DNA from: Gemmatimonadota bacterium
GTDB lineage: Bacteria > Gemmatimonadota > Gemmatimonadetes > Palauibacterales > Palauibacteraceae
Direction of reading: 5' to 3'
Length of the DNA stretch: 17,591 nt
Assembly (NCBI GenBank): GCA_046758745.1
Contig: JBHIAV010000053.1
Span: forward strand, 1-17,591
How positions within the stretch are numbered: position 1 is the first letter of the stretch; each line of letters starts with the position of its first letter. The notes under the pieces are model-generated. The model did not search any database, was not told the DNA's origin, and saw only the letters and a program-made list of their open reading frames with translations. Shown piece by piece: positions 830-13,384 of this stretch. The position numbers and the translations under genes are program-made.

Positions 830-1444
830 TCAGCCCGCGGGCCGAACGTCGATGTGGCCTTCGGTTACCCGAAGCTCCATCGGCCTGATGCCCTTGGCTC
901 CCATGATCGGACCGTTGCACTCGACCATCAGCTCGCCGAGGTCTTCCGGGCCCTCATGAGCCCCTTCCGTCTTCTTCCCGAAGATCATGATCATGTTGAG
1001 ACCGCCGGCGTACAGGTCGTCACCTTCATCGTAAACGAGCGTGCCGTGGCCGCTCTCGTCCACGTGAAAGGTCCCGAGGCTGTGCCAACTTTTGATGAGG
1101 GGCGCGATCTGATCGAAGGGCGGGGCGGGCTCGTTCAAACCCTTGTTGGGATTGCCCTCCTTGAAGAGCAGCTTCACGTACGCGGGCACCTCGATCTCGA
1201 AGAGGAAAACTTCATAGCCCAGGTCTCGCTGAGGAAAGCCCCACACCTCGGCACGCGCCACGCCCCTGCTCAGGTCGGACACGAAGTATCCCTTCGCACC
1301 GACCAGCGGCTTGTCGATGTAGATCTGCCGCACGGTTCCCTCCCAAAGCTCCACCGTCCCCTTGGTGTGCTGGGCCCGGAGGGTAGAGGGAAGGCCGACC
1401 AGCAGGAGCGACAGGGCCGCGGCGAAGGTGAGCTTGGCTCTCAT
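830..1444 (-). CDS. Secreted/periplasmic protein of unknown function (204 aa, Sec signal peptide)
   Basis: 3' part of ORF 830..1897. The ATG at 1444 follows AAAGGAGG and overlaps the MOSC stop (ATGA). The N-terminus MRAKLTFAAALSLLLVGLPSTLRA|QH is a typical signal peptide. Confidence 0.8.
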   Translation of the reverse strand: MRAKLTFAAALSLLLVGLPSTLRAQHTKGTVELWEGTVRQIYIDKPLVGAKGYFVSDLSRGVARAEVWGFPQRDLGYEVFLFEIEVPAYVKLLFKEGNPNKGLNEPAPPFDQIAPLIKSWHSLGTFHVDESGHGTLVYDEGDDLYAGGLNMIMIFGKKTEGAHEGPEDLGELMVECNGPIMGAKGIRPMELRVTEGHIDVRPAG

Positions 1445-2124
1445 GGCTGCCTCCTTTCGACGTGAGAAGCTCGGGCAGGCGGCTGTACTGTGCGCGCGCG
1501 TTCGCGCTGCCCGGACGAAGCGCTGAACAGAATGAGTTCCGCCTGGCCCCGCGTAAGGGTCCCCGATGTCAGGATACGGGCGCGGAGCCCACCGCGACCC
1601 CTCAGGAACTCTTCGGTGCCCGGGACCAGCGCCTGGTCCATCCAGTAGCACGGGCTGCACTCCTCGCTCCCGAAGAAGCGTACCCCGCCAACAGTGAACT
1701 CCCGCCCGACCAGGGCCTGCAGGTCGACCCTCTCCACAATCACGTTGCGGCGAAACACCGAGGGAGAGAAGCTCGGGAGGCCAAAGTGCTCTCGTGCCTT
1801 CCGGACGACTTCCGCGCTGAAGAAGGTGATCTGGCCCTTGTATTGGTCCTCGAACCCGAAGTAGCGGTCTCCCACCAGGCCCTTTCCTGCCACGCATTCC
1901 ACGCGGTCGTGAGATTCGACTCCGTGGTTCTCGCGGGGGAGTCCATGGCGCCCTTTGAAGTCGTGACCGGGGGAGGTGAATATGTGTGCGATCGCGACGC
2001 CGAATCTCCGCTGATCCGGCCCATCGGCCCTGGCCTCAGCGATCCGCTCCCAGACCCGTTCGGGCTTGGGCAACCTGGCAACGAACTTTCCCAAGGTCTC
2101 CGGTGGCCTCGGTCCGCGGCCCAT
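1441..2124 (-). CDS. MOSC domain-containing protein (molybdenum cofactor sulfurase C-terminal domain, YiiM-like)
   Basis: Motifs GKGLVGDRYF, QITFFS, FRRNVIV..VDL..LVGREFTVGGVRF, ECSPCYWMD and RGRGGLRARIL.SG are MOSC signatures. GGAGG lies 6 nt before the ATG at 2124. Confidence 0.85.
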   Translation of the reverse strand: MGRGPRPPETLGKFVARLPKPERVWERIAEARADGPDQRRFGVAIAHIFTSPGHDFKGRHGLPRENHGVESHDRVECVAGKGLVGDRYFGFEDQYKGQITFFSAEVVRKAREHFGLPSFSPSVFRRNVIVERVDLQALVGREFTVGGVRFFGSEECSPCYWMDQALVPGTEEFLRGRGGLRARILTSGTLTRGQAELILFSASSGQRERARTVQPPARASHVERRQP

Positions 2125-2268
2125 GCTTGCCTCCATGGAATCGGGGATCGACAGACGACCACGAGGATCGAACGGGCCGTCGTGTCCTAGTGGCGTCGGA
2201 CAGTCCCGTCGGCCTCTGTCCTCACTCGAGTCAGCAGCCACGGCAGCCCGGGGTCCGCTCCGCGCCCG

Positions 2269-3759
2269 CTACCGTGCGATCTCCAGTTCGTACCAAGTAC
2301 TGACTGCCTTCTGTCCGTCGCGGTCCTCTCGGTCGCCGTCCCACACCGCGAAGGCGATAGGGTACACCCTGCCGGGCGAGAACGAGACGTCCCCCCGGTC
2401 GCCGCTCCGGAGAGCCCGCCGGATGAGGACCTGCCACTCGCCGGATTTCCAGATGCCCATGCCCGTCACGTTCTGCTGCGGGGCCGGCTGGAGCGTCAGG
2501 GTTCCGAACCCCTCGGCATTGAGATCCTGCACGGCGGAGGGAAGGCGCACGGACGCCGCGAGGTTTCCCGCGTCGGCGGCCGTGGTGAAGTTCAGCGCTT
2601 CGGGGTAGTTGTCCGTCACCGTCGCCGGATACACCTCGAGCAGGCTCCGCCGCTGGGCTAGATCCAGCTGACGGTCCGCCCGCCAGTGCCAAATGTTCAC
2701 AGCGGCGCCGGTCGAGCCCATGGCGAAGTGGGACGCAGCCGTGGCGAGGCTGAACTGGACGGCGGCAGCGTCGGCGAACTCTTCCCCCCGGAGGACGCTC
2801 CACGCGGGAGTCGGATCCTCCCACGTCAGGAGGATTGCCAGGGTGTCACCGTCATGAAGCGCGCGCACTCCGAGCGCCTCGATCGCCTCCTTCCGCTGCC
2901 AGAGGAGCATGAGCGGCACGCGGAAGGCGTCCACGTCGCGCCAACGCGGGTCATCGGGAGAGGCCGGCGCGGAACCGGAGGTGCGCCCCGCCACCAGGCG
3001 GCCGGTGGAGGGCTGTATGGCCACCTTCTCGCCGGCCAGCGACTTGACGTATCGAACGAGCGCCCAAATCTCCACGGGAGTGGCCGTCCCCTCGTAGCTC
3101 GGCATCGGCGTGCCGTCCATCCCGCTCGCGAAGCGGAGGTAGATGTCTTCTTCGCTCCCGCCACCTTTGTAGATCCCCCGGGTGAAGTCGTTGGCTCGTA
3201 TCGGTCGCTTCCAGTTGTCGAAGAGCCCCTCCGACGATGGCCCGTCGCCGCGGCCCTTCTCGCCGTGGCACTTCCAGCAGCCGAGCTCACGATACTTCTG
3301 CGCGCCGAGCGCGAGCTCCGTCGCGTCGGCCGGAGGCCGGGCCGGGGGCGCGGGAAGGAGCTCCGGCTCGAGCTTTTCGAACGCCTCCGAGAAGCCCTTC
3401 ACGACCTGGACCAGAGCGCGCCGGTCGTCCTCGCTCAACCAGTCGAAGCTCGGCATGGCCGAGCCTGGCATGCCGTTCGTGATGGTGCGGAAGAGATCCT
3501 CGTCTGTGGGCAACGACCCCGACGTGGTCGATCGGATCTTGAAATAGGCCCGCGTGAAGTCACGCGGCTTCGGAAAGAGCAGGTACGCGGCCGGCCCGTC
3601 GCCCTTCCCTCCCTGGCCGTGGCACACGGCACATTCTCGCTCATACAGCGCCCGGCCACCCCGCGCTTCGGACGCAAAGTCCTGCGAGCGACCGCATCCT
3701 TGGGCGAGGATGGCGAGCCCCACCCCCAACCCGGCGCCAACCACTGACGGGCGCCTCAT
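2269..3759 (-). CDS. NXR/NAR gamma-subunit candidate: diheme cytochrome c fused to an ethylbenzene-dehydrogenase-gamma-like (EB_dh/DOMON) heme-b domain; probable lipoprotein
   Basis: Two CxxCH motifs (CAVCH, CWKCH), each followed by GDGP..DFT..GM.G..MPS (distal Met). The C-terminal domain has VRALHDG..LAILLTWED, FADAAAVQF, FAMG, VNIWHWRA and IAFAVWDG...RDGQKAVS. The signal peptide ends LAQGC. The ATG at 3759 follows GGAGG and overlaps the chaperone stop (ATGA). Confidence 0.85.
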   Translation of the reverse strand: MRRPSVVGAGLGVGLAILAQGCGRSQDFASEARGGRALYERECAVCHGQGGKGDGPAAYLLFPKPRDFTRAYFKIRSTTSGSLPTDEDLFRTITNGMPGSAMPSFDWLSEDDRRALVQVVKGFSEAFEKLEPELLPAPPARPPADATELALGAQKYRELGCWKCHGEKGRGDGPSSEGLFDNWKRPIRANDFTRGIYKGGGSEEDIYLRFASGMDGTPMPSYEGTATPVEIWALVRYVKSLAGEKVAIQPSTGRLVAGRTSGSAPASPDDPRWRDVDAFRVPLMLLWQRKEAIEALGVRALHDGDTLAILLTWEDPTPAWSVLRGEEFADAAAVQFSLATAASHFAMGSTGAAVNIWHWRADRQLDLAQRRSLLEVYPATVTDNYPEALNFTTAADAGNLAASVRLPSAVQDLNAEGFGTLTLQPAPQQNVTGMGIWKSGEWQVLIRRALRSGDRGDVSFSPGRVYPIAFAVWDGDREDRDGQKAVSTWYELEIAR

Positions 3760-4550
3760 GAAGCCTCCCTCCCTCCCAGGGCACGAGGGATCGGCGCGCA
3801 CGATGCGCCGCACGGAAGGGATCCGGTGAACGCGGGAGGCGGCTCCAGTGTCTTCCTCCGCGTGGGCGTAACCGCCAGATAGACGAGCTCGGCCGCGGCG
3901 AAAGCGCGCAACACTTCACCATACAGCCGGAGAGGACCGCTCCCCGCCTGGCGCACGAGTCGTACCGCGAAGTCGTCGAGCCACGTGCCCAGGTGATCCC
4001 GCACGAACTTCTGCTGCGCCTCCCGGCAAGAGGCCGCGCGATCCGGGCCGTGGCACTCGAGGGCGTACGCCTCCTTGAAGGCGAGGAAGTGCATGAACTC
4101 GAGCTCGATGCCCACGTGGTCCAGCCGCTCGCCTCCTCCCTCCCGGACCCGGAGGCCGAACGCCCGGTAAAAGCCCGCGAGGTCTGCAAGCGTATTCGTC
4201 TGCTCGAAGATGTGCGGTGATCCGTACTGTGCCTCGTACGGCGGACATACCTTCGAGACGGTGTGACCGAAGACCCGCACGTACTCCGCCCCGACCAGCT
4301 CGGACTGCGCCGCGAGGAATAAGCTGCCGAGCTCCGCCAGAGGCCCGAGCACCTCGGCGGCGTACCCGGCTTCGGAAAGGATCTGGCAGGCGGCCTCGAC
4401 CTCGGCGCGCCGATCCTCCCGCTCGGCGATCGGCCCTCCATCCCCCGCGCCGGGGTAGAGGGCGACTTCGGAGAGCAGCCGGTACACCGAGCTTCGGGCC
4501 AGCGCCTCCTCGAGACGTGCCCCGGAACCGGTCGGAGCTGTCGCGCTCAT
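3756..4550 (-). CDS. nxrD: TorD/DmsD/NarJ-family molybdoenzyme maturation chaperone (NxrD-like)
   Basis: ARSSVYRLLS, EYVRVFGH, CPPYEAQYG, LADLAGFYRAFGL, ERLDHVGIELEFMHFL and QQKFVRDHLGTW match the TorD/DmsD Y-F-G..PYE, FY..FG and E..DH..ELEF motifs. It starts 3 nt after the beta-subunit stop. Confidence 0.9.
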   Translation of the reverse strand: MSATAPTGSGARLEEALARSSVYRLLSEVALYPGAGDGGPIAEREDRRAEVEAACQILSEAGYAAEVLGPLAELGSLFLAAQSELVGAEYVRVFGHTVSKVCPPYEAQYGSPHIFEQTNTLADLAGFYRAFGLRVREGGGERLDHVGIELEFMHFLAFKEAYALECHGPDRAASCREAQQKFVRDHLGTWLDDFAVRLVRQAGSGPLRLYGEVLRAFAAAELVYLAVTPTRRKTLEPPPAFTGSLPCGASCAPIPRALGGREAS

Positions 4551-4553
4551 CGT

Positions 4554-5828
4554 CTAGATCGAGTTCGGGTGCTCGGACGGCCGTTCGTGGAACGGCTCCT
4601 CGACCGTAACGCGCACCACCTCCCTGCCCCGGCGATCGAACCCGATGACCGTGTCGTTGTACATCGCCCACGGTTTGCCGTTGATCTCGGTCTCGAAGAC
4701 CTTCGGACCTTCCTCGATCTCGTACCGGAAGATGACGTCCTGAGCCGCGCGAAAGAGCTGGAGGACCGCGAGCAGCTCGCGAGACGGTGCGACGTACCGC
4801 TCGATCGCTCGGTCGACGCCCGGGCCGAACATCTGGCGGAGGTAGCCGCGTGGCACCCAGCGCGGCGGGATGTAGTAGCCGTTCGGTTCGGTACCAAACT
4901 GGGGGTAGAGGGGCAGCGCGATCTTCTCCACCTTCACCAGGAAATACAGGGGGTTTTGCCGATCCTCCACCCATGCCCCGGTCTGCCGATCGATCCGAAC
5001 CAGACCCTGCAAACGGAGCTTGCCCACGCAGGCCGCCATACATCGGGTCTCGATCGGAACGCCGTCGGAAGAGAGCGTGCTGTCCCGCCCCTCCAGCCGG
5101 GGGTAGCAGGCTATGCATTTCTCACTGGTCTGTGTGGTGGCCCGGTACATGGCCTTCTTGTACGGGCAGCCCTCGACACACTTCCTGTAGCCACGGCAGC
5201 GCTTCTGATCGATGAGCACCACCCCGTCTTCGGGCCGCTTGTAGATCGCCTGGCGGGGGCAGGCGGCCAGGCATCCCGGGTACGTGCAGTGGTTGCAAAT
5301 ACGCTGCAGATGGAAGAACCAAGTGCTGTGCTCGGGAAGGGCCGCGGTACCGCCTTCGATCTTGCCGCCCCGCGCCGTGTCCTCGAAGATGTTCGGCGCA
5401 CGCCATTCCTTGTCCGTCGGCAGGTAGCCGAGCGCGCGAACGGGACCTGTTTCCTCGTAGCGGTTCTCCGCGGCCTCAAAGATGGTCATCCCATCGTAGG
5501 TCCCGTACGGTCGGTCGGGATCCTGCGACCGACTCCCGTCCCACGTGGCCGACCTCCCCTGCGCGCGGTGCGCCTCGTCCAGCATGCGGAGCAGCTTGAC
5601 GTCCCAGAACTGAGGGTAGCCGCCGTACGGCTTCGACTCGACGTTGTTCCACCACATGTACTCCTGCCCCTCCGAGAACGTCCACGTGGACTTGCAGGCC
5701 ATGGTGCACGTCTGACAGCCGATGCAGCGGTTGATGTTGAACACGAAGGCGAATTGCCACTCCGGATGGGCTTCCGGATACGGATAGCTCATCCGCCGAC
5801 CCAGCTGCCAGTTGTAGACGTCAGGCAT
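4554..5828 (-). CDS. nxrB: Nitrite oxidoreductase/nitrate reductase beta (Fe-S) subunit, periplasmic Nitrospira/anammox type
   Basis: The N-terminus MPDVYNWQLGRRMSYPY..HPEWQFAFVFNINRC..CQTC.MACKSTW.F..GQEYMWWNNVE.KPYGGYPQ matches the NxrB consensus as I recall it. Four Cys groups (CIGCQTCTMAC, CNHCTYPGCLAAC, CRGYRKCVEGC, CIAC..CMAAC) give 15 Cys, consistent with 3x[4Fe-4S] plus 1x[3Fe-4S]. It also has LPLYPQFGTEPNGYYIPPRW and no signal peptide. Confidence 0.93.
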   Translation of the reverse strand: MPDVYNWQLGRRMSYPYPEAHPEWQFAFVFNINRCIGCQTCTMACKSTWTFSEGQEYMWWNNVESKPYGGYPQFWDVKLLRMLDEAHRAQGRSATWDGSRSQDPDRPYGTYDGMTIFEAAENRYEETGPVRALGYLPTDKEWRAPNIFEDTARGGKIEGGTAALPEHSTWFFHLQRICNHCTYPGCLAACPRQAIYKRPEDGVVLIDQKRCRGYRKCVEGCPYKKAMYRATTQTSEKCIACYPRLEGRDSTLSSDGVPIETRCMAACVGKLRLQGLVRIDRQTGAWVEDRQNPLYFLVKVEKIALPLYPQFGTEPNGYYIPPRWVPRGYLRQMFGPGVDRAIERYVAPSRELLAVLQLFRAAQDVIFRYEIEEGPKVFETEINGKPWAMYNDTVIGFDRRGREVVRVTVEEPFHERPSEHPNSI

Positions 5829-6099
5829 CAGGCGCCCCTCGCTCGGTGAACCGGGGATGGCCCCAGCGGGCTCGGGCCCGATCGATCAGGTCCTGGACGT
5901 ATTCCTCGCCTCTGGCACTCAGGATGGCATGTGTGAGGTCGTAGATGGGTGAGCGAAAGATTCTCCAAAGCTTCGCATCGTCCACACCCAGGCGCACGAA
6001 CTCCTCGACGATGATGAATGCCATCTCGTCGAAGTCGCCTTCGGGCACGGGTGTCCCGACCAGCGCGCACGGATCTTCGGGATCGTACGGCTTGCTCAC
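5821..6099 (-). CDS. Small cytoplasmic protein of unknown function (92 aa) between the alpha and beta subunits
   Basis: The GTG start overlaps the nxrA stop (GTGA) and the stop overlaps the nxrB start by 8 nt. The sequence is protein-like (DPEDPCALVG, EMAFIIVEEFVRLG, IFRSPIY..H) and fills the gap exactly. Confidence 0.8.
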   Translation of the reverse strand: MSKPYDPEDPCALVGTPVPEGDFDEMAFIIVEEFVRLGVDDAKLWRIFRSPIYDLTHAILSARGEEYVQDLIDRARARWGHPRFTERGAPDA

Positions 6100-9000
6100 G
6101 TTACGCTACCGCGAACGCCCACGGTGTCGCCGGTCAGGTACCGTTCCATGAACTCATCCTCGGCCCCCGGGGAATACCCTGTGGTAGCCGGCTCCCAGAT
6201 ACCTCCCTCGAGGCCTCCGGGCTCCGCCCGGGTGATCCGCACCAGCGTCTCCTTCGGAACCGAGTTGATCGCGTGGTTGTCGATGTCGAATCCGAAGGTG
6301 AAGGCCATGGCTCCGGCCTTCTTGTGAAAGAGGCTGTCCGTTTGGTGCATCGGCATCATCCAGGCGCGGGTGATCGACTGGTGTGACCCGTATCGATAGC
6401 TGGCCTGGTACCCGGTCCCTTCGGCGAGAGCGCGGCCATCCTTGCGGCTCTCGTGGGCCTGGACCGACCGCTCCGTCGCCATCCAGCCCGTGTGTTTCAT
6501 GATGGTGAAGTACTTCGGCAACCCCGGGCTGAACTTGACGCGGACCATGCAACGAAAGGCCTTGTACCGGTCCCCATCCGCCGACCAACCGACGAAGGGA
6601 CGATCGGTGGGGTTCGCGTCGACGTAGACGTAATCCCCGTCGTGAAGTCCCAGCTCCTCGGCCGCCTCCGGACTCATCTGTATCTGGCGATCGCTCACGC
6701 CCGGCATTCGTTTATCCATCCGGTAGGGGTCGCCGAAGTTCGTGCTCCAGATCCAGTTCCAGTCGACGACGCTCCACGAGCTGTGCACGGAATGACGGCT
6801 CTTCGGCGTCGAGCAGAAGAAACGGAACCCCTGCTCCCAGAGAGGGTTGGTCGTCTTCTTCACGCGCCTCCACGGCATTCTGACGTTGCGCACCTGTCGG
6901 AGGTCCGCATCGACGGCCGTGAGGGAGATGCCGTAGTCCGCAGGACGGATGTACGGATTGCTCGACACGATCACGTTGGGCAGATACGGCGTCGCCTCCG
7001 GCCCCTCCCGATGGACGATGAAGTTCTCACCGTACTCGATGGCCTCGGGGATGTCGCAGTAGGCACTGAGCCGCCCGCAGTCCGTGTAGAACGGGAGCGA
7101 GTCGTGCACCTGCTCGTAGAAGGGGATCCGCGGATAAGTCCGGTACAGCATGAGAGCGACGCCGGCCTCACCGTATTTGCCGGCGAGGATGTCCCGGCAG
7201 GTGTACGCGCGACCGTCCGGCGTCCGCGTGGTCGACGAGGCCGCGAGTACCCGATCGATGTAGACGTCGGTGTCGCCGCTGAAGACGAAGTGCCAGTAAT
7301 CACGGAAGCGGCGATCGCCGGTGAGCTCGGCAAGAGCCGCCGACACGCCGGCGAAGACCATGGCATCGTCGACGGAATCGTAGAGCGGGTCGATCCCCCG
7401 GATCGCCTCTTGCTTCCGGCCGCCCCACAGCTGGAGGAAAGGGTTGGAGCACGAACTGCCGGCCTCGAGAGTCTGCGATTCGATCCAGGAGTTGACCGGC
7501 AGCACCAGGTCCGCGTACTCGGCGGAACCCGTCCACTCTATCTGCTGGTCGACGATCATGTCGACCTTGGGGTTCACGTTGGTGATCAGGTGGTACGCCC
7601 ACTTCGCCTGATTGATCAGGTTCGCGTTGTTGTACCAGATCAGTTTGGTCGGCGTAGGCATATGCGTCCTGCCCGTGAACACCTTCCGCCCCTTGGGCGT
7701 GTCCACGATCAGCGGCCGATCGCCGGCGCCCCAGTAGCCGACCTCTTCACCGTGCATCGTGTTGCGAAGGTCGGCAGCGGTGAGGCTGGCTTCCGGGTCC
7801 AGGACCGGGCGGAAGGGATCCTCCCGGACGTAGACCCCGGCGCCAGGCCCCGACCACGGCGAGGCCTGGAAGACCCCGCCCTTGTAGTTGCCGGCCCACG
7901 TGTACACGCCCGCACCGGGACGCCCGATGTTCCCGGTCAGCATCATCGGCAGGAAGACGGCGCGGTTGTGCAGCGTGGCGTGGAAGTAGTGGTTGATGCC
8001 CTCGCCGTGGTGAATGGCGGCCGGGCGGATGGTCGCCAGGTCGCGCGCCAGTCGCCGGATCAGGGCCCGGTCGGCGCCGGTGATCTCGGCGACCGTGTCG
8101 AGATCGTAGTCGCGCAGGTGGATCCGGTAGAGGGAGAAGACCGTCATCGCCTCGACAGACCGGCCGTCCACCGTACGGACGCTCCCCTGCCACTCGAGCG
8201 CCGGGTCGATCCCTGTTCGGGCCAGCCGTTCACCCACGTCGTCCCGCGTGATCGCTCTCAGAGCGCCCGAGGTCGCGTCCCACACCAGGAAGTCCCCGAT
8301 CCGACGCCGCTGCTCGTCCGTCAGGCCCTGGATCGTGTAGCTCGGGCCGTCCGAGAGATCCGACTGCCGGTATCCCGGAAACACCTCCTCCGGTCGCAGC
8401 CGCTCGAGCGTATCCGTACGCACGAGCAGCGGAAAATCCGTGAACTGCTTGACGAAATCGACGTCGTAGAGCCCTTCGTCGATGAGATAGCGGGCCACGT
8501 AGAGGAAGAGCGCCGTGTCGGAGAGGCCGGGGCGCGCCTGGATCCAGTAGTCGGATTTGGTGGCCGGCGCATTGTACTCCGGTGCTATGGTTACGATCTT
8601 TCCGCCGCGCTCCATGATCTCGCTCATCCAGTGGGATTCGGGCATCTTGTTCTCTATCAGGTTCTTTCCCACCTGGATGTGGAGCTTCGTGCTTCGCAGA
8701 TCATTGAAGTCGCAGTCCGAAGTCTGAAGCCCGGTCACGAAGGGTTGACCGGGGGCCTGATCCCCGCGCCACGTGTACTCCGTCCAATCGCGGCAGCCCT
8801 TTGCCTCCTCCGGGGAAACTCCCCGCACGTGGTGGTCGAGAAGCCCCATCAGATTCCCGAAGCGGAACAGGCCGAACTTCCCGACGATGCCGTGGAGCGG
8901 CAGGCTGGAGCCGATCTTCATCGTGCGCGTTCCGGCACCGCCCCAGTGCTCGAACATCTCTTCCAGATACCCATCCCGGAGCAGGCGCGCCCGGCCCTGC

Positions 9001-9587
9001 TCGCCGCTGTACGTCCGAGCGATCGCCACCAGGCCCTGGGCCGCATACCGGTAGGCTTCCTCCCAGGAGAGCCGCACAAACTCGTCGTTGCCGCGGTCAT
9101 CGAACCGGTAGGTGCTGCGCAAGCGAGGGTTTTCGGAGAGCGAGGGAAAGCCGTCGTCGGCCCACTCCTTCCACCCACGCCGAACCACCGGATAGCGGAG
9201 GCGGTGCGGACCATACACACGACGGTGCATGGTGTAGCCCTTCAGGCAGCCGCGCGGGTTCCAGGCCGGCGTGGCCTTGTTCCCGTACAGATCCGCGTAG
9301 CGCTGGTGGTCGTAGTTCTGTTCCGAGCGGATGAGGACGCCGTTCCGCACGAAGCCCCGCAGCCGGCACATGTGGGTGTCGTTGGGAGCACACACCCAGG
9401 TGAAGGTGCGATCGTAGTCGTATTGGTCGCGGTAGAGTCTCTCCCAGTCCCGGTCCGGATAGTGTTCCAGCGGGTTCTCTACCCCGACCACGGGGACGAG
9501 CATGCGGCACGAGGCCGTGCCGCCCAGCGTCAGGCTGGCCGAGGCGATCGCGGATCTCTTCACGAATTCACGGCGGCTCAGTGACAT
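6096..9587 (-). CDS. nxrA: Nitrite oxidoreductase/nitrate reductase alpha subunit (Mo-bis-PGD, type II DMSO reductase family), Tat-exported, periplasmic NXR type
   Basis: Twin-arginine motif SRREFVK. NXR-type motifs NPLEHYPDRDWERLYRDQY and the FS0 motif C66-APN-D70-THM-C74...WNPRG-C114. Predicted Mo-ligating Asp276 in YTWRGDQ. Further matches are GKNLIENKMPESHW, HGEGINHYFH, WAGNYK, HREGPEATPYLPNVIV, TPKSRHSVHS and YRYGSHQSITR. GAGGTG precedes the ATG at 9587, and the GTG at 9596 is an alternative start. Confidence 0.93.
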   Translation of the reverse strand: MSLSRREFVKRSAIASASLTLGGTASCRMLVPVVGVENPLEHYPDRDWERLYRDQYDYDRTFTWVCAPNDTHMCRLRGFVRNGVLIRSEQNYDHQRYADLYGNKATPAWNPRGCLKGYTMHRRVYGPHRLRYPVVRRGWKEWADDGFPSLSENPRLRSTYRFDDRGNDEFVRLSWEEAYRYAAQGLVAIARTYSGEQGRARLLRDGYLEEMFEHWGGAGTRTMKIGSSLPLHGIVGKFGLFRFGNLMGLLDHHVRGVSPEEAKGCRDWTEYTWRGDQAPGQPFVTGLQTSDCDFNDLRSTKLHIQVGKNLIENKMPESHWMSEIMERGGKIVTIAPEYNAPATKSDYWIQARPGLSDTALFLYVARYLIDEGLYDVDFVKQFTDFPLLVRTDTLERLRPEEVFPGYRQSDLSDGPSYTIQGLTDEQRRRIGDFLVWDATSGALRAITRDDVGERLARTGIDPALEWQGSVRTVDGRSVEAMTVFSLYRIHLRDYDLDTVAEITGADRALIRRLARDLATIRPAAIHHGEGINHYFHATLHNRAVFLPMMLTGNIGRPGAGVYTWAGNYKGGVFQASPWSGPGAGVYVREDPFRPVLDPEASLTAADLRNTMHGEEVGYWGAGDRPLIVDTPKGRKVFTGRTHMPTPTKLIWYNNANLINQAKWAYHLITNVNPKVDMIVDQQIEWTGSAEYADLVLPVNSWIESQTLEAGSSCSNPFLQLWGGRKQEAIRGIDPLYDSVDDAMVFAGVSAALAELTGDRRFRDYWHFVFSGDTDVYIDRVLAASSTTRTPDGRAYTCRDILAGKYGEAGVALMLYRTYPRIPFYEQVHDSLPFYTDCGRLSAYCDIPEAIEYGENFIVHREGPEATPYLPNVIVSSNPYIRPADYGISLTAVDADLRQVRNVRMPWRRVKKTTNPLWEQGFRFFCSTPKSRHSVHSSWSVVDWNWIWSTNFGDPYRMDKRMPGVSDRQIQMSPEAAEELGLHDGDYVYVDANPTDRPFVGWSADGDRYKAFRCMVRVKFSPGLPKYFTIMKHTGWMATERSVQAHESRKDGRALAEGTGYQASYRYGSHQSITRAWMMPMHQTDSLFHKKAGAMAFTFGFDIDNHAINSVPKETLVRITRAEPGGLEGGIWEPATTGYSPGAEDEFMERYLTGDTVGVRGSVT

Positions 9588-9677
9588 CGCGCGCACCTCA
9601 TCTCGGTCCGGTCAGCCAGCCCTCTTCGTACTCCGTGCCGCAGCCCGTATGGGCCGCCGCGTATGTCTTCCACTCCC

Positions 9678-9707
9678 GCTAGAGTTCGAGATCACCCCAA
9701 CTCTAGC
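9678..9707. promoter_or_regulatory. Perfect 9-bp inverted repeat GCTAGAGTT-N12-AACTCTAGC about 90 nt upstream of nxrA (leader hairpin or operator)
   Basis: Seen directly. On the minus (nxr mRNA) strand the stem extends by three more pairs, including one G.U, after a G-G mismatch. Confidence 0.5.
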
Positions 9708-9752
9708 TGGAAAGTGCTCCGCCGGCCTGTCGGGAGGACTTGGCGACCTGAT

Positions 9753-9769
9753 GTGGGGATTTGCCCTAC
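9753..9769. promoter_or_regulatory. Imperfect palindrome GTGGGGA-TTT-GCCCTAC; possible NarL/NreC (LuxR-type) response-regulator site
   Basis: Reads TAGGG-CAAAT-CCCCA on the minus strand, resembling but not matching the NreC-type TAGGG-N4-CCCTA. It lies about 170 nt upstream of nxrA. Confidence 0.3.
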
Positions 9770-9907
9770 GCGCTGAAGCGAAGAGGGCGGCACGCGGTCT
9801 GTGGACTTCCAGGTGATGAGATCAGGAGCGTGGCGTACGGCGAGCCGCCCGTCGGGCTGCCGCCCACGCCCGAACCGTCGCTTCCTCCGAGAAGATCGCG
9901 GGGGCAG

Positions 9908-10024
9908 TCAAAAGGGTATCACGTCGCGTCCAACCGCCATATCGACTGGAATGAAGTGTTCGCGGATGATCCTCTCGGCCTCTTCGTGCGTTCCGCGCTT
10001 GAACTTCCCTTAATGCACCTCATA
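9908..10024 (-). pseudogene. Possible degraded gene fragment (YEVH*GKFKRGTHEEAERIIREHFIPVDMAVGRDVIPF*)
   Basis: A protein-like amphipathic stretch bounded by in-frame stops and lacking a start. The family is not identified. Confidence 0.3.
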
Positions 10025-10042
10025 GCAGGCCGCTTCGGCACG

Positions 10043-10066
10043 CCCCAGTCCCCTCAACGACTGGGG
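10043..10066. repeat. Perfect 8-bp inverted repeat CCCCAGTC-N8-GACTGGGG next to an AT-rich patch (10079-10098)
   Basis: Seen directly in the divergent intergenic region. Confidence 0.5.
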
Positions 10067-10338
10067 ATTCCTCCGCGATTGACGTATATTTTTTCGTTAG
10101 GAGGCCTCTGAGAAGCCCATGGCTGCACTTCTCGTCTCGTCGCTGGTTGTCTTCCGCCCGCCTCTTGGCGCAGAAGAAGCGCCAATGAAGCCCACGGAAC
10201 TGGGCGGCGGAGCAAGTCCGGCCCCATCGACCCCTAGCCAACGGTCGGCCGACTGGTTCTCGACACCCAGGGCGACCCTCCTCCAGGACGTCTTGACAGA
10301 CCGTCGAATCCTATCCGTTTGACCCAAGGAGAGGCCGA

Positions 10339-12678
10339 ATGACACGGTGGACGATCCCCAAGAAGCCGCGGCGTCTCTCGCTCTGGCAGGGAAGGACTGG
10401 TGCGCTGCTGCTGATCCTAGGAGCGCTGGGTGCCTGTTCCAGGAGGCCGGCCATACGGGGCGCGACGGATCTACCCTTCAGGCTGGACGGTCTGGAGACA
10501 GCTGAGATCGACGGCGAGCCAGTGTTCCTACCGCCCAACCCGTACAACATCTTCGTCAACTACGAGTTGGGGATGCACTGCGTCGGCTTCGACATGAACT
10601 ACTGCTGTGTTATCCCGCCGTACAACAGCATCCAGGCTCAGGCGATGCGAACGGCGACGGCGGACGACCCGAGGCCTCGCCTGCTCTCACCGGAAGATGG
10701 GGTGACGTTGTGGTACGGTGTGGACGACAACACGTATTCCGAAGGCGACAAGATGGCCTACTGGGGGGTGCCCAAAGACGTGAATGGCGACGGGGACAAG
10801 GACGATCCCAACGACAACTTCGCCAACTACGTCTGGACGCACCTGTACATCTACGCGGACCTGGAAGGGACCCTGCCTGAAGGGCGTAGCCGAGCGGACC
10901 GGCTCCGCGTGGGCCGAGAGATCCCTGTGCAAGTGGACCACGGTCCCTCCGGCGCGCCGATGGCCGGCTTCGCGTCCTATGCGGACGAGGATGGCGGAAA
11001 CGTCGTCTTCACCGAGTCCCGCTACGGAGGCCTGTCCGATATCCCGCTGACGCTGACAGCCAGCCACATCTGGGACGCGCTGGGCCTGCCGCTGACGGCC
11101 TTCAACGACGGCGTGTTGGATGGGGGCTCCCACCGCAGCATCGAGGAAACCTACCTGCAGCCGTTCCAGGTCTCGCGCGTCACGCTCTACGACGCCCGAA
11201 CCGAGAGCCCGATCCGGACGAACGGCAATGAGGTCAGCTTCTTCGGCACCAACCCCGTGGACATCCCGAATTGCGTGTGGTGCCACGGCACCGAGCGGGC
11301 GAATGCCTTCGGCGACGAGATGTTCACGAGGTACCGGCAAGAGTACGACTACTGGACGTCGACCTATCCGGACCAGAGCGACTTCATGGCTCGGCTGAGC
11401 GCGGCTAACATCAGCATCCTAGAGATCCACGATTCGAAGCACGGCACGGCCTTCCTGGCGGAGTACGCCCCGAAGGCATCCAGCAACCGTCTCGGAAGCT
11501 CTGGACCGGTGAACTGTTCCGACTGCCACGGGGACAACGTGCAGGGGCGGCTGAAGGTGCAGGGCGAGACTCCGCAGCAGCAGGCCACGCCGCTGACCGA
11601 GGCGATCCATCAGACGCACCTTACGTTCGTGCCGGACGCCGACCAGTTCGGCCGTACCCAGGCCTGTCAGATGTGCCACCCGTCGCACTTCCAGAATCCG
11701 GAGTTGAACGTCACGGGGACGGGCTTCAGTCCGCTTACCAAGGACGGCCAGCCGCGATTCTCGGAGGGCGACATTCGCACCTCCGGCGGCGGCTGCTACC
11801 TCCGCCGTGACGCGCACACCAACCCGAGGGCCCAGCCGCCCTTCTTTCTGAATTCCGTGGGCGAGTACCTGCTGGCGAGCGTGGCGACCGTAGCGGAGGA
11901 ACTGCGCGGCCTGTACTGCACCAATTGCCACAACCACAACGCGCAGGCGCTCTACGCGCGTGATGCTCTCGTGACGGGACAGAAGCCGAGCGCCGACGAG
12001 ACGCTACGCGGCCAGTCGCTGGCGGAGATCGCCGCCGCCGTGACCGGATCCGACGACGTGGCCGCTTATGCGGCGTATTACCTCGATCCGGTCGTCGGGG
12101 CGGACGGCAATCCGCTGGTGGCGTACTATGCTGAGCACGAACCAGCCGCGCTGCCGGAGGTAGGCGAAAGCGCGACCTACGCCGACGCATCGGCTGGGAT
12201 CGACTGGTGGCTGTCGGCCAGCCAACCGCACTGCGCGGACTGTCACGTGCCCCCCTTCGTCGAGAGCATGGGCGGCGCGTATTTCCCCATTGATCAGCAG
12301 GGCAAGTACTCGCTGTACCGCTACTCGAAGGCGCACGCCAACATCGCCTGCCAGTCCTGCCATGAGTCGATCCACGGCCTGTACGAGGCGGTGGAAGGTG
12401 AGGGCGCGGATCAGACCACGATCGCTCAGGCGCGTCAGTTCAGCCCCGACGGCAAATATGCCGGACCGGTGACCTGCGTGGCCTGTCACGTTGTCGGCCC
12501 GAACGGAGTCCCGGTCCAACTAGGCGACACGGACTACTACGACGACTATTGGGCCTCAGTCGTGCTGCTGCACTACATGCGGGGCGAAGACTTCACGCTT
12601 TCGATTGACGAGCTGCTGGCCAACTATCCATACGAGGACGCGGCCGCGATCGTGGCGAGCAGCGTGCAGGCACGATGA
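10339..12678 (+). CDS. Multiheme cytochrome c lipoprotein with 7 CxxCH motifs (779 aa)
   Basis: Heme motifs CVWCH, CSDCH, CQMCH, CTNCH, CADCH, CQSCH and CVACH. Lipobox LGAC follows a basic n-region and hydrophobic h-region. The N-terminal domain has ELGMHC...YCCVIPPYNSIQAQ. AAGGAGAGG precedes the ATG. Confidence 0.9.
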   Translation: MTRWTIPKKPRRLSLWQGRTGALLLILGALGACSRRPAIRGATDLPFRLDGLETAEIDGEPVFLPPNPYNIFVNYELGMHCVGFDMNYCCVIPPYNSIQAQAMRTATADDPRPRLLSPEDGVTLWYGVDDNTYSEGDKMAYWGVPKDVNGDGDKDDPNDNFANYVWTHLYIYADLEGTLPEGRSRADRLRVGREIPVQVDHGPSGAPMAGFASYADEDGGNVVFTESRYGGLSDIPLTLTASHIWDALGLPLTAFNDGVLDGGSHRSIEETYLQPFQVSRVTLYDARTESPIRTNGNEVSFFGTNPVDIPNCVWCHGTERANAFGDEMFTRYRQEYDYWTSTYPDQSDFMARLSAANISILEIHDSKHGTAFLAEYAPKASSNRLGSSGPVNCSDCHGDNVQGRLKVQGETPQQQATPLTEAIHQTHLTFVPDADQFGRTQACQMCHPSHFQNPELNVTGTGFSPLTKDGQPRFSEGDIRTSGGGCYLRRDAHTNPRAQPPFFLNSVGEYLLASVATVAEELRGLYCTNCHNHNAQALYARDALVTGQKPSADETLRGQSLAEIAAAVTGSDDVAAYAAYYLDPVVGADGNPLVAYYAEHEPAALPEVGESATYADASAGIDWWLSASQPHCADCHVPPFVESMGGAYFPIDQQGKYSLYRYSKAHANIACQSCHESIHGLYEAVEGEGADQTTIAQARQFSPDGKYAGPVTCVACHVVGPNGVPVQLGDTDYYDDYWASVVLLHYMRGEDFTLSIDELLANYPYEDAAAIVASSVQAR

Positions 12679-13307
12679 AGGTCCGTACGGGAATCGGCGA
12701 GATTCGAGTTCGTCGGTCCCTCGTCGTACTCGCGCTCGTCGTGGCGACCGGCGCATCCGTGCTGGCGGTGCTGGCTCCGGGCGGTGCGGCTCCCAGTGAA
12801 GCCTCGCCGTCAGCGACCGATGCCGGATCGGCTGCACCGTCCACTGCTTCGGAGACCCCGCCTCGCCGGGTCCACACCACACATGCGGGCGAGCGTCTGG
12901 CGCCCGGTTTCTCCCTTCCGGATGTCCTGCGTCAGGGGGAGCGGGTCACGTTGAGCGAATATTCCGGTCGGCCGGTGGTCGTCAATTTCTTTGCCAGTTG
13001 GTGCGTGCCGTGCCGGAAGGAGATGTCCGCCCTGGAGACTGCCTACCAGCGTCACAGGGATTCGGGCCTGGTGGTCATCGGCGTGGGCGCCAGGGACGGA
13101 AAGCGGCCGGTGATCGGCTTCGCCATCTCAGCGGGTGTGACCTTTCCGGTCGTGTGGGACGGCTCGGGGGAGGTGTCCACCGCCTACGGTCTGCGGGGCA
13201 TGCCGACGACGTACTTCATTGACGCAACCGGAATCGTCAGGAACACGGTGATGGGCGCGCTCAAGTTGGAGCAGCTGGGGGAGCAGATCACGGCGATTCT
13301 GGACTGA
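12675..13307 (+). CDS. TlpA/ResA/CcmG-like membrane-anchored thiol-disulfide oxidoreductase
   Basis: N-terminal TM segment and A/S/P-rich linker, then APGFSL, GRPVVVNFFASWCVPCRKEM and YGLRGMPTTYFID..G. ATGA overlap with the multiheme gene. Confidence 0.9.
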   Translation: MKVRTGIGEIRVRRSLVVLALVVATGASVLAVLAPGGAAPSEASPSATDAGSAAPSTASETPPRRVHTTHAGERLAPGFSLPDVLRQGERVTLSEYSGRPVVVNFFASWCVPCRKEMSALETAYQRHRDSGLVVIGVGARDGKRPVIGFAISAGVTFPVVWDGSGEVSTAYGLRGMPTTYFIDATGIVRNTVMGALKLEQLGEQITAILD

Positions 13308-13344
13308 GCGGGGCTCTCTGGAACAAGTCGTCGAGCCACTCCTC

Positions 13345-13365
13345 CCGGGCGCGTAAAGCGTCTGG
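13345..13365 (+). terminator. Weak hairpin between convergent genes (CCGGGCGC-GTAAA-GCGTCTGG)
   Basis: 8-bp stem with two G.U pairs, followed only by TT. Confidence 0.25.
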
Positions 13366-13384
13366 TTCCACCGGCCGCCTCGTC

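What the first reader, a model, noticed from the sequence alone, without database searches (positions are those of the whole stretch)
830..13307. Complete periplasmic Nitrospira/anammox-type NXR-like module in an apparently non-canonical host, with its own accessory genes
Seen: Tat-exported alpha, beta, chaperone and heme gamma genes, three coupled or adjacent accessory genes (92-aa ORF, MOSC, secreted protein), and a divergent heptaheme lipoprotein plus TlpA. Known: this enzyme clade performs nitrite oxidation in Nitrospira, Nitrospina and anammox bacteria, and relatives act as nitrate reductases. Inference: the very high GC and the flanking TM-PD40 gene suggest a Gemmatimonadota/Acidobacteriota-like host. 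This could be an unrecognised nitrite oxidiser or mixotroph, or a periplasmic nitrate-respiring system with a gene set I do not recognise from described NXR operons.
Basis: partly seen in the sequence, partly recalled or inferred. Interest (0 to 1): 0.88.

Follow-up and report, generated by a model that had tools for sequence, protein, structure and literature searches.

The report
Acquired NXR-type nitrite/nitrate enzyme operon
An uncultured hydrothermal-vent bacterium has picked up the widespread five-gene cassette for the periplasmic molybdenum enzyme that interconverts nitrite and nitrate; the enzyme type is well known, and whether it makes or consumes nitrate here is still open.

Summary
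The genes are real and intact. Window 2269-9596 (minus strand) is a translationally coupled operon: nxrA, a 92-aa ORF, nxrB, a NarJ-type chaperone and nxrC. It is the Kuenenia/Nitrospira periplasmic NXR type: 1644 and 644 bits to PDB 7B04 chains for A and B, with catalytic and haem ligands conserved.

This is a common cassette, not a new gene set. 346 species genomes encode relatives, and 57 of 80 named loci keep the 92-aa ORF between alpha and beta. A 2023 paper and earlier reports of this scan describe it.

MOSC and the secreted protein are host genes. They are 74-76% DNA-identical in NXR-lacking relatives and lie in 0 of 80 NXR loci. The heptahaem/TlpA pair is not NXR-linked elsewhere.

The host is non-canonical. 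None of 40 same-family or same-order genomes has the enzyme, and host-type genes flank it on both sides. A second sample's contigs bridge both junctions. The phylum stays unresolved.

The working direction is open. My odds are nitrate reduction about 0.5 and nitrite oxidation about 0.3.

New here:
- The 92-aa protein is predicted to bind NxrB.
- Alpha and beta have discordant phylogenies.
- The genome also carries a small-subunit-less RuBisCO with PRK.

The parts
6096..9596 (-). nxrA: the Tat-exported molybdopterin catalytic subunit. The ORF starts at a GTG at 9596; the likely start is the ATG at 9587.
   Evidence: It scores 1644 bits to Kuenenia NxrA (7b04_B) over residues 4-1161. The FS0 motif C-x2-N-D-x3-C and the TW[RH]GDQAP motif holding the Mo-ligand Asp are visible in that alignment and match the residues named in PMC8387239. 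The Tat model scores over its cut-off.
5821..6099 (-). A conserved 92-aa cytoplasmic protein with no named family. It is predicted to bind NxrB.
   Evidence: A homologue was detected in 59 of 80 named loci and lies directly between alpha and beta in 57 of those 59. Alignment A1 has 36 rows. No Pfam or NCBIfam family matched. The AF2 model is four helices with pLDDT 86. The complex model with NxrB scores 0.83 against a best control of 0.07.
4554..5828 (-). nxrB: the iron-sulfur subunit. It has no signal peptide and is presumably co-exported with NxrA.
   Evidence: It scores 644 bits to 7b04_A. Fer4_11 matched. The cluster cysteines are invariant in 33 rows.
3756..4550 (-). NarJ/TorD-type assembly chaperone (nxrD).
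   Evidence: PF02613 scores 77 bits. TIGR03482 scores 93 bits, below its 152.3 cut-off. A homologue is present in 72 of 80 loci.
2269..3813 (-). nxrC-like gamma subunit: signal peptide, dihaem cytochrome c and haem-b EB_dh domain in one protein. The likely ATG is at 3759.
   Evidence: Residues 52-260 score 206 bits to 6h5l_B, and residues 311-513 score 110 bits to 7b04_C. Met155 and Lys305 of KsNxrC both align to identical residues (PMC8387239). The same fusion lies in one ORF in 46 of 46 loci that have both parts.
10339..12678 (+). Heptahaem lipoprotein, divergently transcribed. It is a candidate co-acquired redox partner, but the link to NXR is not shown.
   Evidence: It has 7 CxxCH motifs. 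It is in 0 of 40 relatives and 0 of 80 NXR loci. It belongs to a family of about 800-aa hypothetical proteins, 52-56% identical in Sulfurovum, Persephonella, Aquificae and Syntrophales. No PDB relative was found.
12675..13307 (+). TlpA/ResA-type thiol-disulfide oxidoreductase, coupled to the heptahaem gene.
   Evidence: AhpC-TSA scores 91 bits and the ResA model 103 bits. It is in 0 of 80 NXR loci.
1441..2241 (-). MOSC-domain gene. This is a host gene that marks the left edge of the insert, not part of the module.
   Evidence: PF03473 scores 35.7 bits. Window 1556-2003 is 74% DNA-identical to two places in same-family genome G011. It is in 0 of 80 NXR loci.
830..1444 (-). Secreted 204-aa protein of unknown function. 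This is a host gene, not part of the module.
   Evidence: Window 830-1398 is 76% DNA-identical in same-family genomes G007 and G011. It is in 0 of 80 NXR loci.
13385..14665 (-). MscS-type channel gene. This is a host gene that marks the right flank.
   Evidence: It is 78% identical at protein level in G011 and 65% in G012, both same family, and 50-54% in the same order. DNA identity to G011 is 79%.

Best explanation
Window 2269-9596 is a horizontally acquired, intact five-gene cassette: nxrA, a 92-aa gene, nxrB, nxrD and nxrC. It encodes a periplasmic nitrite:nitrate oxidoreductase of the Kuenenia/Nitrospira (NXR) type. It is inserted between ordinary genes of an uncultured vent bacterium that respires oxygen and N2O and whose relatives lack the enzyme.

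How it works (inferred from homology):
- Apo-NxrA receives Mo-bisMGD and the FS0 cluster with the help of the NarJ-type chaperone.
- NxrB has no signal peptide and is held by the small 92-aa protein until it pairs with NxrA (model only).
- The AB pair leaves through Tat on NxrA's twin-arginine signal.
- In the periplasm it docks on the Sec-exported gamma subunit.
- Electrons run between Mo, FS0-FS4, haem b, two c haems and the cytochrome c pool.

The chemistry is reversible. My best guess for this organism is that the enzyme mainly serves as a periplasmic respiratory nitrate reductase fed from the quinol:cytochrome c branch. In that role it stands in for the NarGHI that part of its family carries.

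I put the enzyme identity at about 0.95 and the direction at about 0.5.
For: Identity:
- Alpha scores 1644 bits, beta 644 bits and the gamma C-domain 110 bits to the 7B04 chains.
- The Mo-ligand Asp, the substrate Asn, the 3Cys/1Asp FS0 ligands and the haem-b Met/Lys ligands are all conserved (residues named in PMC8387239 passages).
- The Tat motif scores over its cut-off, and the genes are coupled.

Acquisition:
- None of 40 relatives has a close homologue; the best non-self match is 25% identical.
- Both flanks are host-lineage DNA, 66-85% identical in relatives.
- Contigs of a second sample (X2) cover 1874-4883 and 8427-17563, bridging both junctions.
- In the alpha tree the window sits with an unnamed 84%-identical protein inside a 10-row clade dominated by Acidobacteriota (SH-aLRT 100). 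Yet host RpoB is only 53-54% identical to two named Acidobacteriota.

Direction (nitrate reduction):
- The NarG model scores over its cut-off in 9 of 40 relatives, and 2 more carry fragments at E<=1e-50. That is 11 of 40 in all: 7 of 24 same family and 4 of 16 same order. None was found in this genome.
- No NapA-like enzyme appeared among its four molybdoenzyme matches.
- The genome has clade II NosZ (852 bits, over cut-off) beside a divergent haem-copper oxidase.
- Kuenenia NXR catalyses both directions (PMC8387239 abstract).
- The nitrate-respiring Thermogutta terrifontis has a single Nar-type enzyme next to bc1 genes (PMC5673643 passage). PMC10732223 places it in the NXR clade.
- Only 8 of 50 NXR-bearing named genomes have RuBisCO.

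Small protein:
- The complex model of the 92-aa protein with NxrB scores 0.83, with the best of 3 controls at 0.07.
- That mark was reached by 58 of 80 solved complexes and 2 of 110 mismatched pairs.
- The runs share at least 62% of contacts, and the partner pLDDT is at least 73.
- I used my own alignments, so those counts hold only roughly.
- In L005 the ORF stays with beta although alpha lies elsewhere.
Against: Against nitrate reduction as the main role:
- No dissimilatory nitrite reductase was found. The NirK model scores 90 bits against a 296 cut-off. The Cytochrom_D1 hit is a PQQ-associated beta-propeller. NrfA gave no match.
- The genome is clearly aerobic, with three aa3-type oxidases and cytochrome bd.
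- It carries RuBisCO, PRK and transketolase, which are found in 0 of 24 same-family and 2 of 16 same-order genomes.
- Every cultured organism known to live on a periplasmic NXR oxidises nitrite (recalled knowledge).
- No FNR-type box lies in the 742-nt upstream region.

General limits:
- The genome is 87% complete, so the absences are weak.
- No expression data exist.
- The 92-aa/NxrB contact is a model, not a measurement.
- No named Nitrospira, Nitrospina or Brocadiales sequence could be put in my trees.
Confidence: 0.5

Rival explanations
1. The organism uses the enzyme in the oxidative direction. It would be a facultative (mixotrophic or autotrophic) nitrite oxidiser that passes electrons from NXR through the c haems of gamma and soluble cytochrome c to its aa3 oxidases, and that can fix CO2 through RuBisCO and PRK.
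For: - The enzyme clade is that of the periplasmic nitrite oxidisers.
- The genome has three aa3-type cytochrome c oxidases.
- It has a RuBisCO large subunit (NF003252, 658 bits, over cut-off) next to PRK, transketolase and an FSA/transaldolase.
- RuBisCO is not found in the 24 same-family genomes and NXR is in none of the 40 relatives, so two rare traits coincide in this genome.
- No nirK, nirS or nrfA was found.
- Gamma carries c-type haems.
Against: - The RuBisCO cluster lies about 3 kb upstream of a PQQ methanol/ethanol dehydrogenase with MoxJ-like genes. Autotrophy may therefore serve C1 or alcohol oxidation instead.
- Only 8 of 50 NXR-bearing named genomes have RuBisCO.
- The genome has NosZ and lacks any other nitrate reductase.
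- aa3 oxidases are common in heterotrophs.
- No activity or expression data exist.
Confidence: 0.3
2. The contig is mis-binned or chimeric, and the NXR operon really belongs to another organism, for example an Acidobacteriota member.
For: - Contig C53 is peripheral in tetranucleotide space: rank 78 of 88 contigs of 5 kb or more, with GC 65.3% against 68.4% for the genome.
- Alpha's nearest named relatives are Acidobacteriota.
Against: - Genes on both sides of the operon have their best matches in same-family genomes: MscS 78% at protein level, MOSC 74%, the secreted protein 76% and the left TM gene 85% at DNA level.
- Contigs of a second sample bridge both junctions at even depth.
- GC3 of the operon genes is 0.74-0.86 and that of the flank genes 0.73-0.86.
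- The contig's first 55 bases equal the last 55 bases of C91 of the same bin.
Confidence: 0.04
3. The enzyme acts on another oxyanion or substrate (chlorate, perchlorate, selenate or an organic substrate), like other type II DMSO-reductase-family members.
For: - The family is substrate-diverse. The next-best PDB matches are the chains titled 'DMSO reductase family type II enzyme' (4ydd) and ethylbenzene dehydrogenase.
- A Chlor_dismutase-family gene is present (184 bits).
Against: - The bit score to KsNxrA (1644) is far above those to 4ydd_A (192) and EbdA (140).
- The substrate-facing Asn and the Mo-ligand Asp are as in KsNXR.
- PF06778 also covers coproheme decarboxylases and matches 7 of the 14 control genomes.
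Confidence: 0.06

Closest known systems
Kuenenia stuttgartiensis NXR-ABC (PDB 7B04; PMC8387239)
   Same: - All three subunits align full-length or domain-length (1644, 644 and 110 bits).
- The Mo-ligand Asp, substrate Asn, 3Cys/1Asp FS0 ligands and Met/Lys haem-b ligands are the same.
- Alpha carries a Tat signal.
   Different: - Gamma here carries an extra N-terminal dihaem cytochrome c domain, similar to a separate Kuenenia protein (6h5l_B).
- The host has no anammox genes.
- I did not look for NXR-T in this genome; no monohaem cytochrome c gene lies in the window.
- The 15-gene Kuenenia cluster layout was not compared gene by gene.
NXR-like operons of non-anammox Planctomycetota and other uncultured phyla (PMC10732223; loci L001-L080)
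   Same: - The same cassette, 63-77% identical in alpha.
- The same small ORF, chaperone and gamma.
- The same open question about direction.
   Different: - A different and so far unnamed host lineage, with no carriers among 40 relatives.
- Alpha groups with the Acidobacteriota-type clade, whereas beta and the gene order match the Binatia/Methylomirabilis/Proteobacteria type.
Thermogutta terrifontis nitrate reductase (PMC5673643; placed in the NXR clade by PMC10732223)
   Same: An enzyme of the same broad clade in a cultured organism that respires nitrate. This is a precedent for the reductive direction.
   Different: - I did not have its sequence, so identity and layout were not compared.
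- Its authors describe it as NarGHI with a NarI subunit and as cytoplasmic. No NarI-like gene is in the window.
Periplasmic NXR of Nitrospira and Nitrospina (recalled; named as relatives of anammox NXR in PMC12758564)
   Same: The same enzyme type and periplasmic orientation.
   Different: - Those organisms are obligate or specialised nitrite oxidisers whose relatives share the enzyme.
- From recall, their nxrA and nxrB are adjacent without the small ORF. I did not test this.
Membrane-bound NarGHI
   Same: The same superfamily and cofactor chain, with a NarJ-type chaperone.
   Different: - The narG model scores 123 bits against a 1084 cut-off, and the narH model 182 against 524.
- The enzyme here is Tat-exported, has no NarI, and has a haem b/c gamma instead.

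Membership tests
Periplasmic NXR (Kuenenia/Nitrospira/Nitrospina type) | Full-length similarity of the alpha subunit to a biochemically characterised NxrA | tested here: met
   1644 bits to 7b04_B over residues 4-1161. The next-best PDB chain scores 192 bits.
Periplasmic NXR (Kuenenia/Nitrospira/Nitrospina type) | Twin-arginine signal on alpha, and beta without a signal | tested here: met
   The SRREFVK motif is present. TIGR01409 scores 18.7 bits against a 16.7 cut-off. Beta starts MPDVYNWQ like its homologues.
Periplasmic NXR (Kuenenia/Nitrospira/Nitrospina type) | Mo-ligand Asp275, substrate Asn70, and FS0 bound by 3 Cys plus Asp71 (KsNxrA numbering) | tested here: met
   All are identical in the printed alignment. 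The residues are named in PMC8387239 passages.
Periplasmic NXR (Kuenenia/Nitrospira/Nitrospina type) | Beta subunit carrying the four cysteine groups for the Fe-S clusters FS1-FS4 | tested here: met
   644 bits to 7b04_A. The cluster cysteines are invariant in the 33-row alignment A2.
Periplasmic NXR (Kuenenia/Nitrospira/Nitrospina type) | EB_dh-type gamma subunit with Met/Lys haem-b ligands | tested here: met
   PF09459 scores 99.9 bits. Met155 and Lys305 of KsNxrC align to M and K.
Periplasmic NXR (Kuenenia/Nitrospira/Nitrospina type) | Nitrite-oxidising or nitrate-reducing activity | not testable with these tools
   No RNA run holds the locus, and no biochemistry is available.
NCBIfam type II DMSO reductase subfamily models (TIGR03479/03478/03477/03482) | Score over the curated cut-off | tested here: not met
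   Alpha scores 320 against 985, beta 251 against 481, gamma 134 against 170 and the chaperone 93 against 152. These are the best-scoring families, but all fall below cut-off. The NXR clade lies outside these narrower models.
Respiratory NarGHI | The narG and narH equivalog models score over cut-off, and a NarI membrane subunit is present | tested here: not met
   narG scores 123 against 1084 and narH 182 against 524. No NarI-like gene is in the window.
Canonical nitrite-oxidising lineage | NXR shared by the host's close relatives | tested here: not met
   None of 24 same-family and none of 16 same-order genomes has a close homologue.
Canonical nitrite-oxidising lineage | A CO2-fixation pathway and a terminal oxidase in the genome | tested here: met
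   RuBisCO, PRK and transketolase are present, as are three aa3 oxidases and cytochrome bd. These features are not specific to nitrite oxidisers.
Anammox bacteria | Hydrazine synthase | tested here: not met
   PF18582 gave no match in the 87%-complete genome. The hydrazine-synthase-beta model scores 141 against a 560 cut-off, and only on a PQQ-associated propeller protein.

The most novel reading that the evidence does not exclude
This vent bacterium, from a lineage with no known nitrifiers, is a facultative chemolithoautotrophic nitrite oxidiser. It would have assembled the trait by gene transfer from three pieces: a mosaic NXR cassette, a small-subunit-less RuBisCO with PRK, and possibly the neighbouring heptahaem lipoprotein as an electron outlet. 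In this reading the conserved 92-aa protein is a so far unrecognised NxrB-specific assembly factor of all periplasmic NXR-type enzymes.
Probability: 0.2. Interest if true: 0.8.

Novelty: new member of a known kind. Interest (0 to 1): 0.35.

Why it matters
Nitrite oxidation is credited to a handful of lineages. Yet this cassette sits in hundreds of uncultured species: 346 species genomes. If even some of these hosts oxidise nitrite, nitrification budgets and marker-gene surveys based on nxrA and nxrB are mis-assigned. If they reduce nitrate, then 'nxr' counts in metagenomes overstate nitrifiers.

This copy is a clean case of recent acquisition, with host genes on both sides. It sits in a genome that also has RuBisCO and NosZ, so it is a reasonable test organism for the question of direction.

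The predicted contact between the 92-aa protein and NxrB gives a concrete, cheap experiment on how these enzymes are assembled.

Tried and rejected
Expression and regulation
- No RNA holder is listed for window 1401-11400.
- The promoter and terminator scans are at chance level: 3 promoter-like sites against 1.8 expected, and 8 terminator-like sites against 7.2.
- An FNR-type box search (TTGAT-N4-ATCAA, up to 2 mismatches) gave 3 matches against 1.73 expected. None lies in 9597-10338.

Host naming
- The Atlas search with RpoB gave no taxa.
- The exact-sequence look-up gave no names.
- RpoB is 50-60% identical to nine named genomes: Acidobacteriota (two), Planctomycetota, Acidimicrobiia, Myxococcota, Methylomirabilota, Chloroflexota and Elusimicrobiota. 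The Binatia genome gave no match. The phylum is left unresolved.

Synteny
- Around the MscS homologues of G011 and G012, only that one gene is shared with the window.

The 92-aa protein
- No Pfam family matched it. Among the 36 members scanned, the best was DUF7696 in 4, at E 0.01.
- Foldseek against the PDB gave 0 matches at E<=0.001.
- VIA-align gave a best Z of 6.3 (an FF domain, rmsd 3.2 over 62 residues), which is within the noise for small helical folds.
- The Atlas neighbours are all 'hypothetical protein' clusters.

Heptahaem protein
- No PDB relative was found at E<=0.1.

Reference sequences for the trees
- The best 120 of 2325 homologues carried no Nitrospira, Nitrospina or Brocadia names.
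- Only the best 80 of 346 loci were kept.
- My trees therefore hold no canonical nitrite oxidiser.

Markers not pursued
- The Chlor_dismutase hit cannot separate Cld from coproheme decarboxylase.
- The NirK-like cupredoxin protein (90 bits against a 296 cut-off) is not counted as NirK.

Supplements
- The supplementary tables and trees of PMC10732223 and PMC12758564 were not seen. They may already list relatives of this host.
Full report
OBSERVATION

The window is the whole of contig C53 of a 3.08-Mb bin with 130 contigs. The bin is 87% complete with 0.08% contamination.

On the minus strand lie five genes in a row:
- a 1166-aa molybdopterin subunit (6096-9596);
- a 92-aa ORF (5821-6099);
- a 424-aa Fe-S subunit (4554-5828);
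- a 264-aa NarJ/TorD-type chaperone (3756-4550);
- a gamma subunit (2269-3813, likely ATG at 3759).

Their junctions are GTGA, an 8-nt overlap, a 3-nt gap and ATGA.

Downstream lie a MOSC gene and a 204-aa secreted protein (830-1444), which are coupled to each other by ATGA. Upstream and divergent, after 742 nt, lie a lipoprotein with exactly seven CxxCH motifs (10339-12678) and a coupled TlpA/ResA-like gene.

WHAT THE ENZYME IS

Alpha scores 1644 bits against NxrA of Kuenenia stuttgartiensis (7b04_B) over residues 4-1161. The next solved relative scores 192 bits. Beta scores 644 bits against 7b04_A.

The printed alignment shows the motif C-x2-N-D-x3-C and TW(R/H)GDQAP. These hold Cys67, Asn70, Asp71, Cys75 and the Mo-ligand Asp275, which the structure paper names (PMC8387239 passages). 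The unusual 3Cys/1Asp FS0 site is therefore present.

Gamma residues 311-513 match KsNxrC, and both haem-b ligands (Met155, Lys305) are conserved. Gamma residues 52-260 match a separate Kuenenia dihaem cytochrome c (6h5l_B, 206 bits).

Alpha has a twin-arginine signal that scores over the model's cut-off, and beta has no signal.

The narG and narH equivalog models, and the narrower TIGRFAM type II DMSO-reductase models, all score far below their cut-offs. The enzyme is therefore an NXR-type enzyme. It is neither a NarGHI nor a Ser/Ebd/Pcr-type enzyme.

HOW COMMON THE CASSETTE IS

A scan of one genome per species found 346 stretches that encode relatives. The best 80 (63-77% identical) are named MAGs of Acidobacteriota, non-anammox Planctomycetota, Burkholderiales and other Proteobacteria, Acidimicrobiia, Binatia, Methylomirabilota, Myxococcota, Chloroflexota, Elusimicrobiota and Omnitrophota. 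A protein search found 2325 homologues at E<=1e-100 among the candidates scored.

Within the 80 loci (some cut by contig ends), homologues were found as follows:

| Gene | Loci with a homologue (of 80) |
|---|---|
| beta | 76 |
| EB_dh gamma domain | 73 |
| chaperone | 72 |
| 92-aa ORF | 59 |
| cytochrome c domain of gamma | 46 |

The 92-aa ORF lies directly between alpha and beta in 57 of its 59 occurrences. The cytochrome c and EB_dh parts lie in one ORF in 46 of 46 loci that have both.

Gene order is gamma-first in 39 loci, gamma-last (as here) in 33, other in 1, and 7 loci show no gamma. The window's exact layout, gamma-last with a fused gamma, recurs in 6 loci: L009, L011, L012, L018, L020 and L045.

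A 2023 paper reports 19 such Planctomycetota MAGs and states that the direction could not be assigned (PMC10732223 passages). Some of my loci (OFTM isolates) are from that work. This scan has already reported the cassette on other DNA at least eight times. The gene set is therefore not new.

WHICH NEIGHBOURS BELONG TO IT

MOSC, the secreted protein, the heptahaem protein, TlpA, MscS and the left TM protein occur in 0 of 80 NXR loci.

A DNA search of the whole window in 40 relatives matched these parts:

| Window part | Gene | Identity in relatives |
|---|---|---|
| 138-658 | left TM gene | up to 85% |
| 830-1398 | secreted protein | 76%, two same-family genomes |
| 1556-2003 | MOSC | 74% |
| 13413-14779 | MscS | 79% |
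| 15011-17010 | PD40 protein | 66-68% |

Inside the operon, the same search matched only conserved Fe-S and cytochrome c motifs. It matched nothing in 9597-13412. The MscS protein is 78% and 65% identical in two same-family genomes and 50-54% identical in same-order genomes.

So the insert begins right after MOSC. It ends somewhere between alpha's start and MscS.

The heptahaem protein is absent from all 40 relatives at E<=1e-10. It belongs to a conserved, unnamed family of about 800-aa proteins, 52-56% identical in Sulfurovum, Persephonella, Aquificae and Syntrophales. It has no solved relative. It may have arrived with the operon or separately. Nothing ties it to NXR elsewhere.

THE HOST

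None of 24 same-family and none of 16 same-order genomes has a close alpha homologue. The best non-self match is 25% identical. In a nitrifier or anammox lineage, relatives would share the enzyme. HZS_alpha was not found.

Mis-binning is unlikely for four reasons:
- Host-type genes lie on both sides of the operon.
- Contigs from a second sample of the same study cover 1874-4883 and 8427-17563 with 3 and 7 differences, at even depth.
- GC3 is alike in the operon and flank genes.
- The contig overlaps C91 of the same bin by 55 bases.

The contig is, however, peripheral in tetranucleotide space: rank 78 of 88.

The runs that hold this DNA are labelled hydrothermal vent metagenome, and all are from one study.

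I could not name the phylum. RpoB (1526 aa) is 50-60% identical to nine named genomes of eight phylum-level groups.

EVOLUTION OF THE COPY

Alpha groups with an unnamed 84%-identical protein. The pair sits inside a 10-row clade of 5 Acidobacteriota, 2 Planctomycetota and 1 Gammaproteobacterium (SH-aLRT 100).

Beta instead falls in a 21-row set of Proteobacteria, Binatia, Methylomirabilota and Elusimicrobiota (SH-aLRT 99). That set is the one that shares the window's gene order.

AU tests reject the swapped placements: p 1.7e-6 on the beta data and 2e-90 on the alpha data. The groups were named after seeing the trees. The second group is not a clade in the alpha tree even without the window, so that second test is the weaker one.

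Alpha is closer to the Acidobacteriota type in most 100-residue stretches, and most clearly across residues 500-900. The operon therefore looks mosaic, with a breakpoint near the end of alpha.

THE 92-AA PROTEIN

It has no signal peptide and no Pfam or NCBIfam family. Its model is a confident four-helix fold (pLDDT 86) with no convincing structural neighbour.

A complex model with NxrB passed. The score is 0.83, with the best of three controls at 0.07. That mark was reached by 58 of 80 solved complexes and 2 of 110 mismatched pairs. The runs share at least 62% of contacts, and the partner pLDDT is at least 73. I used my own alignments, so those counts hold only roughly.

The NxrB contacts include residues 33-39, which sit at the first cluster-binding cysteine motif, as well as 168-173, 323-326 and the C-terminal tail.

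No such complex is in the solved Kuenenia structure, which holds the A, B, C and T subunits. A pass from memory is therefore unlikely. I read the protein as a cytoplasmic holder or assembly factor for NxrB. This is inference.

DIRECTION OF CATALYSIS

For nitrate reduction:
- NarG matches occur in 11 of 40 relatives, over the curated cut-off in 9, and in none of this genome's contigs.
- No NapA-like enzyme is among its molybdoenzymes. The others are two formate dehydrogenases and a NifS fusion.
- A clade II NosZ lies beside a divergent haem-copper oxidase.
- The cultured nitrate respirer Thermogutta has an enzyme of this clade next to bc1 genes.
- Only 8 of the 50 NXR-bearing genomes searched have RuBisCO. 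Thirty of the 80 were not searched.

For nitrite oxidation:
- No nirK, nirS or nrfA was found.
- The genome has three aa3 oxidases and cytochrome bd.
- It has a RuBisCO, PRK, transketolase and FSA cluster. That RuBisCO is found in 0 of 24 same-family and 2 of 16 same-order genomes.

The RuBisCO's best solved matches are 457-aa large subunits (774 bits) and 6ura (679 bits), ahead of ordinary form I at about 620 bits. No small-subunit gene is next to it. From recall, this is the form I'-like group. The cluster lies beside a PQQ methanol/ethanol dehydrogenase system, which offers a rival reason for autotrophy.

I therefore put nitrate reduction at about 0.5, nitrite oxidation at about 0.3, and the remainder on other readings.

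VERDICT

This is a real, intact and recently acquired copy of a known and widespread enzyme cassette in a new host lineage. The claim of a private accessory gene set does not hold. The points worth keeping are the predicted contact between the small protein and NxrB, the mosaic origin of the operon, and the coincidence of NXR with RuBisCO in one vent genome.

Noticed in passing
L099 (G000:C20:10000-29900), RuBisCO at 9274-10662: A RuBisCO large subunit with no adjacent small-subunit gene is followed by PRK and transketolase and preceded by an FSA/transaldolase. A PQQ methanol/ethanol dehydrogenase, a MoxJ-like protein and a PQQ-associated propeller lie just downstream. The best PDB matches are 457-aa large subunits (774 bits) and 6ura (679 bits). 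The RuBisCO is found in 0 of 24 same-family and 2 of 16 same-order genomes.
   Followed up: partly
window 4554-9596: Alpha and beta of the same operon have discordant phylogenies. Alpha groups with an Acidobacteriota-type clade. Beta and the gene order match a Binatia/Methylomirabilis/Proteobacteria-type set. AU tests reject the swapped placements.
   Followed up: partly
window 10339-12678: The heptahaem lipoprotein belongs to a large, unnamed and well-conserved family of about 800-aa proteins. Members are 52-56% identical in Sulfurovum, Persephonella, Aquificae and Syntrophales. Some relatives carry extra C-terminal cytochrome c domains and reach 1037-1148 aa. No solved relative exists.
   Followed up: partly
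L108 (G000:C5:22000-38000) and L107 (G000:C12:23000-31000): Next to an aa3 oxidase lie a 720-aa cytochrome c::EB_dh fusion, a dihaem cytochrome c and an 814-aa protein that matches only the first half of CydA ('bd-like'). A second bd-like gene is on C12, where a 38%-identical paralogue of the fusion also lies. The fusion is present in 17 of 24 same-family genomes at 52-61% identity (one of them only as a 94-residue C-terminal fragment), so it is a host-lineage module that resembles NxrC without an NXR.
   Followed up: partly
G000:C15:32290-40196 (L093, L104): A clade II NosZ (852 bits, over cut-off) lies about 5 kb from a divergent 711-aa haem-copper oxidase. That oxidase scores only 124 bits to the CtaD model. 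A small CuA-like ORF sits beside it. This may be a nitric-oxide-reductase-like enzyme.
   Followed up: no
L101 (G000:C50:2731-6192): A 1153-aa ORF joins a molybdopterin oxidoreductase domain (residues about 22-695) to a NifS/IscS-type cysteine desulfurase (771-1143).
   Followed up: no
window 17538-17591 and 1-55: The contig ends inside a tRNA gene (Rfam, 42.9 bits, cut at the end), which explains the many 91-100% matches in relatives. The first 55 bases equal the last 55 bases of contig C91, which looks like an assembly k-mer overlap.
   Followed up: yes
relatives G001, G011, G016, G040 and others: Matches to NarG and to the cytochrome c::EB_dh protein in several relatives contain in-frame TGA, TAG or TAA stops. 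I did not examine whether these are frameshifts, joined segments or broken genes.
   Followed up: no
window 2194 and 12250-12300: There is strain variation between samples. One low-depth contig of run X4 has 9 extra bases after 2194. A contig of X3 differs at 12 of the 51 positions 12250-12300, inside the heptahaem gene.
   Followed up: no
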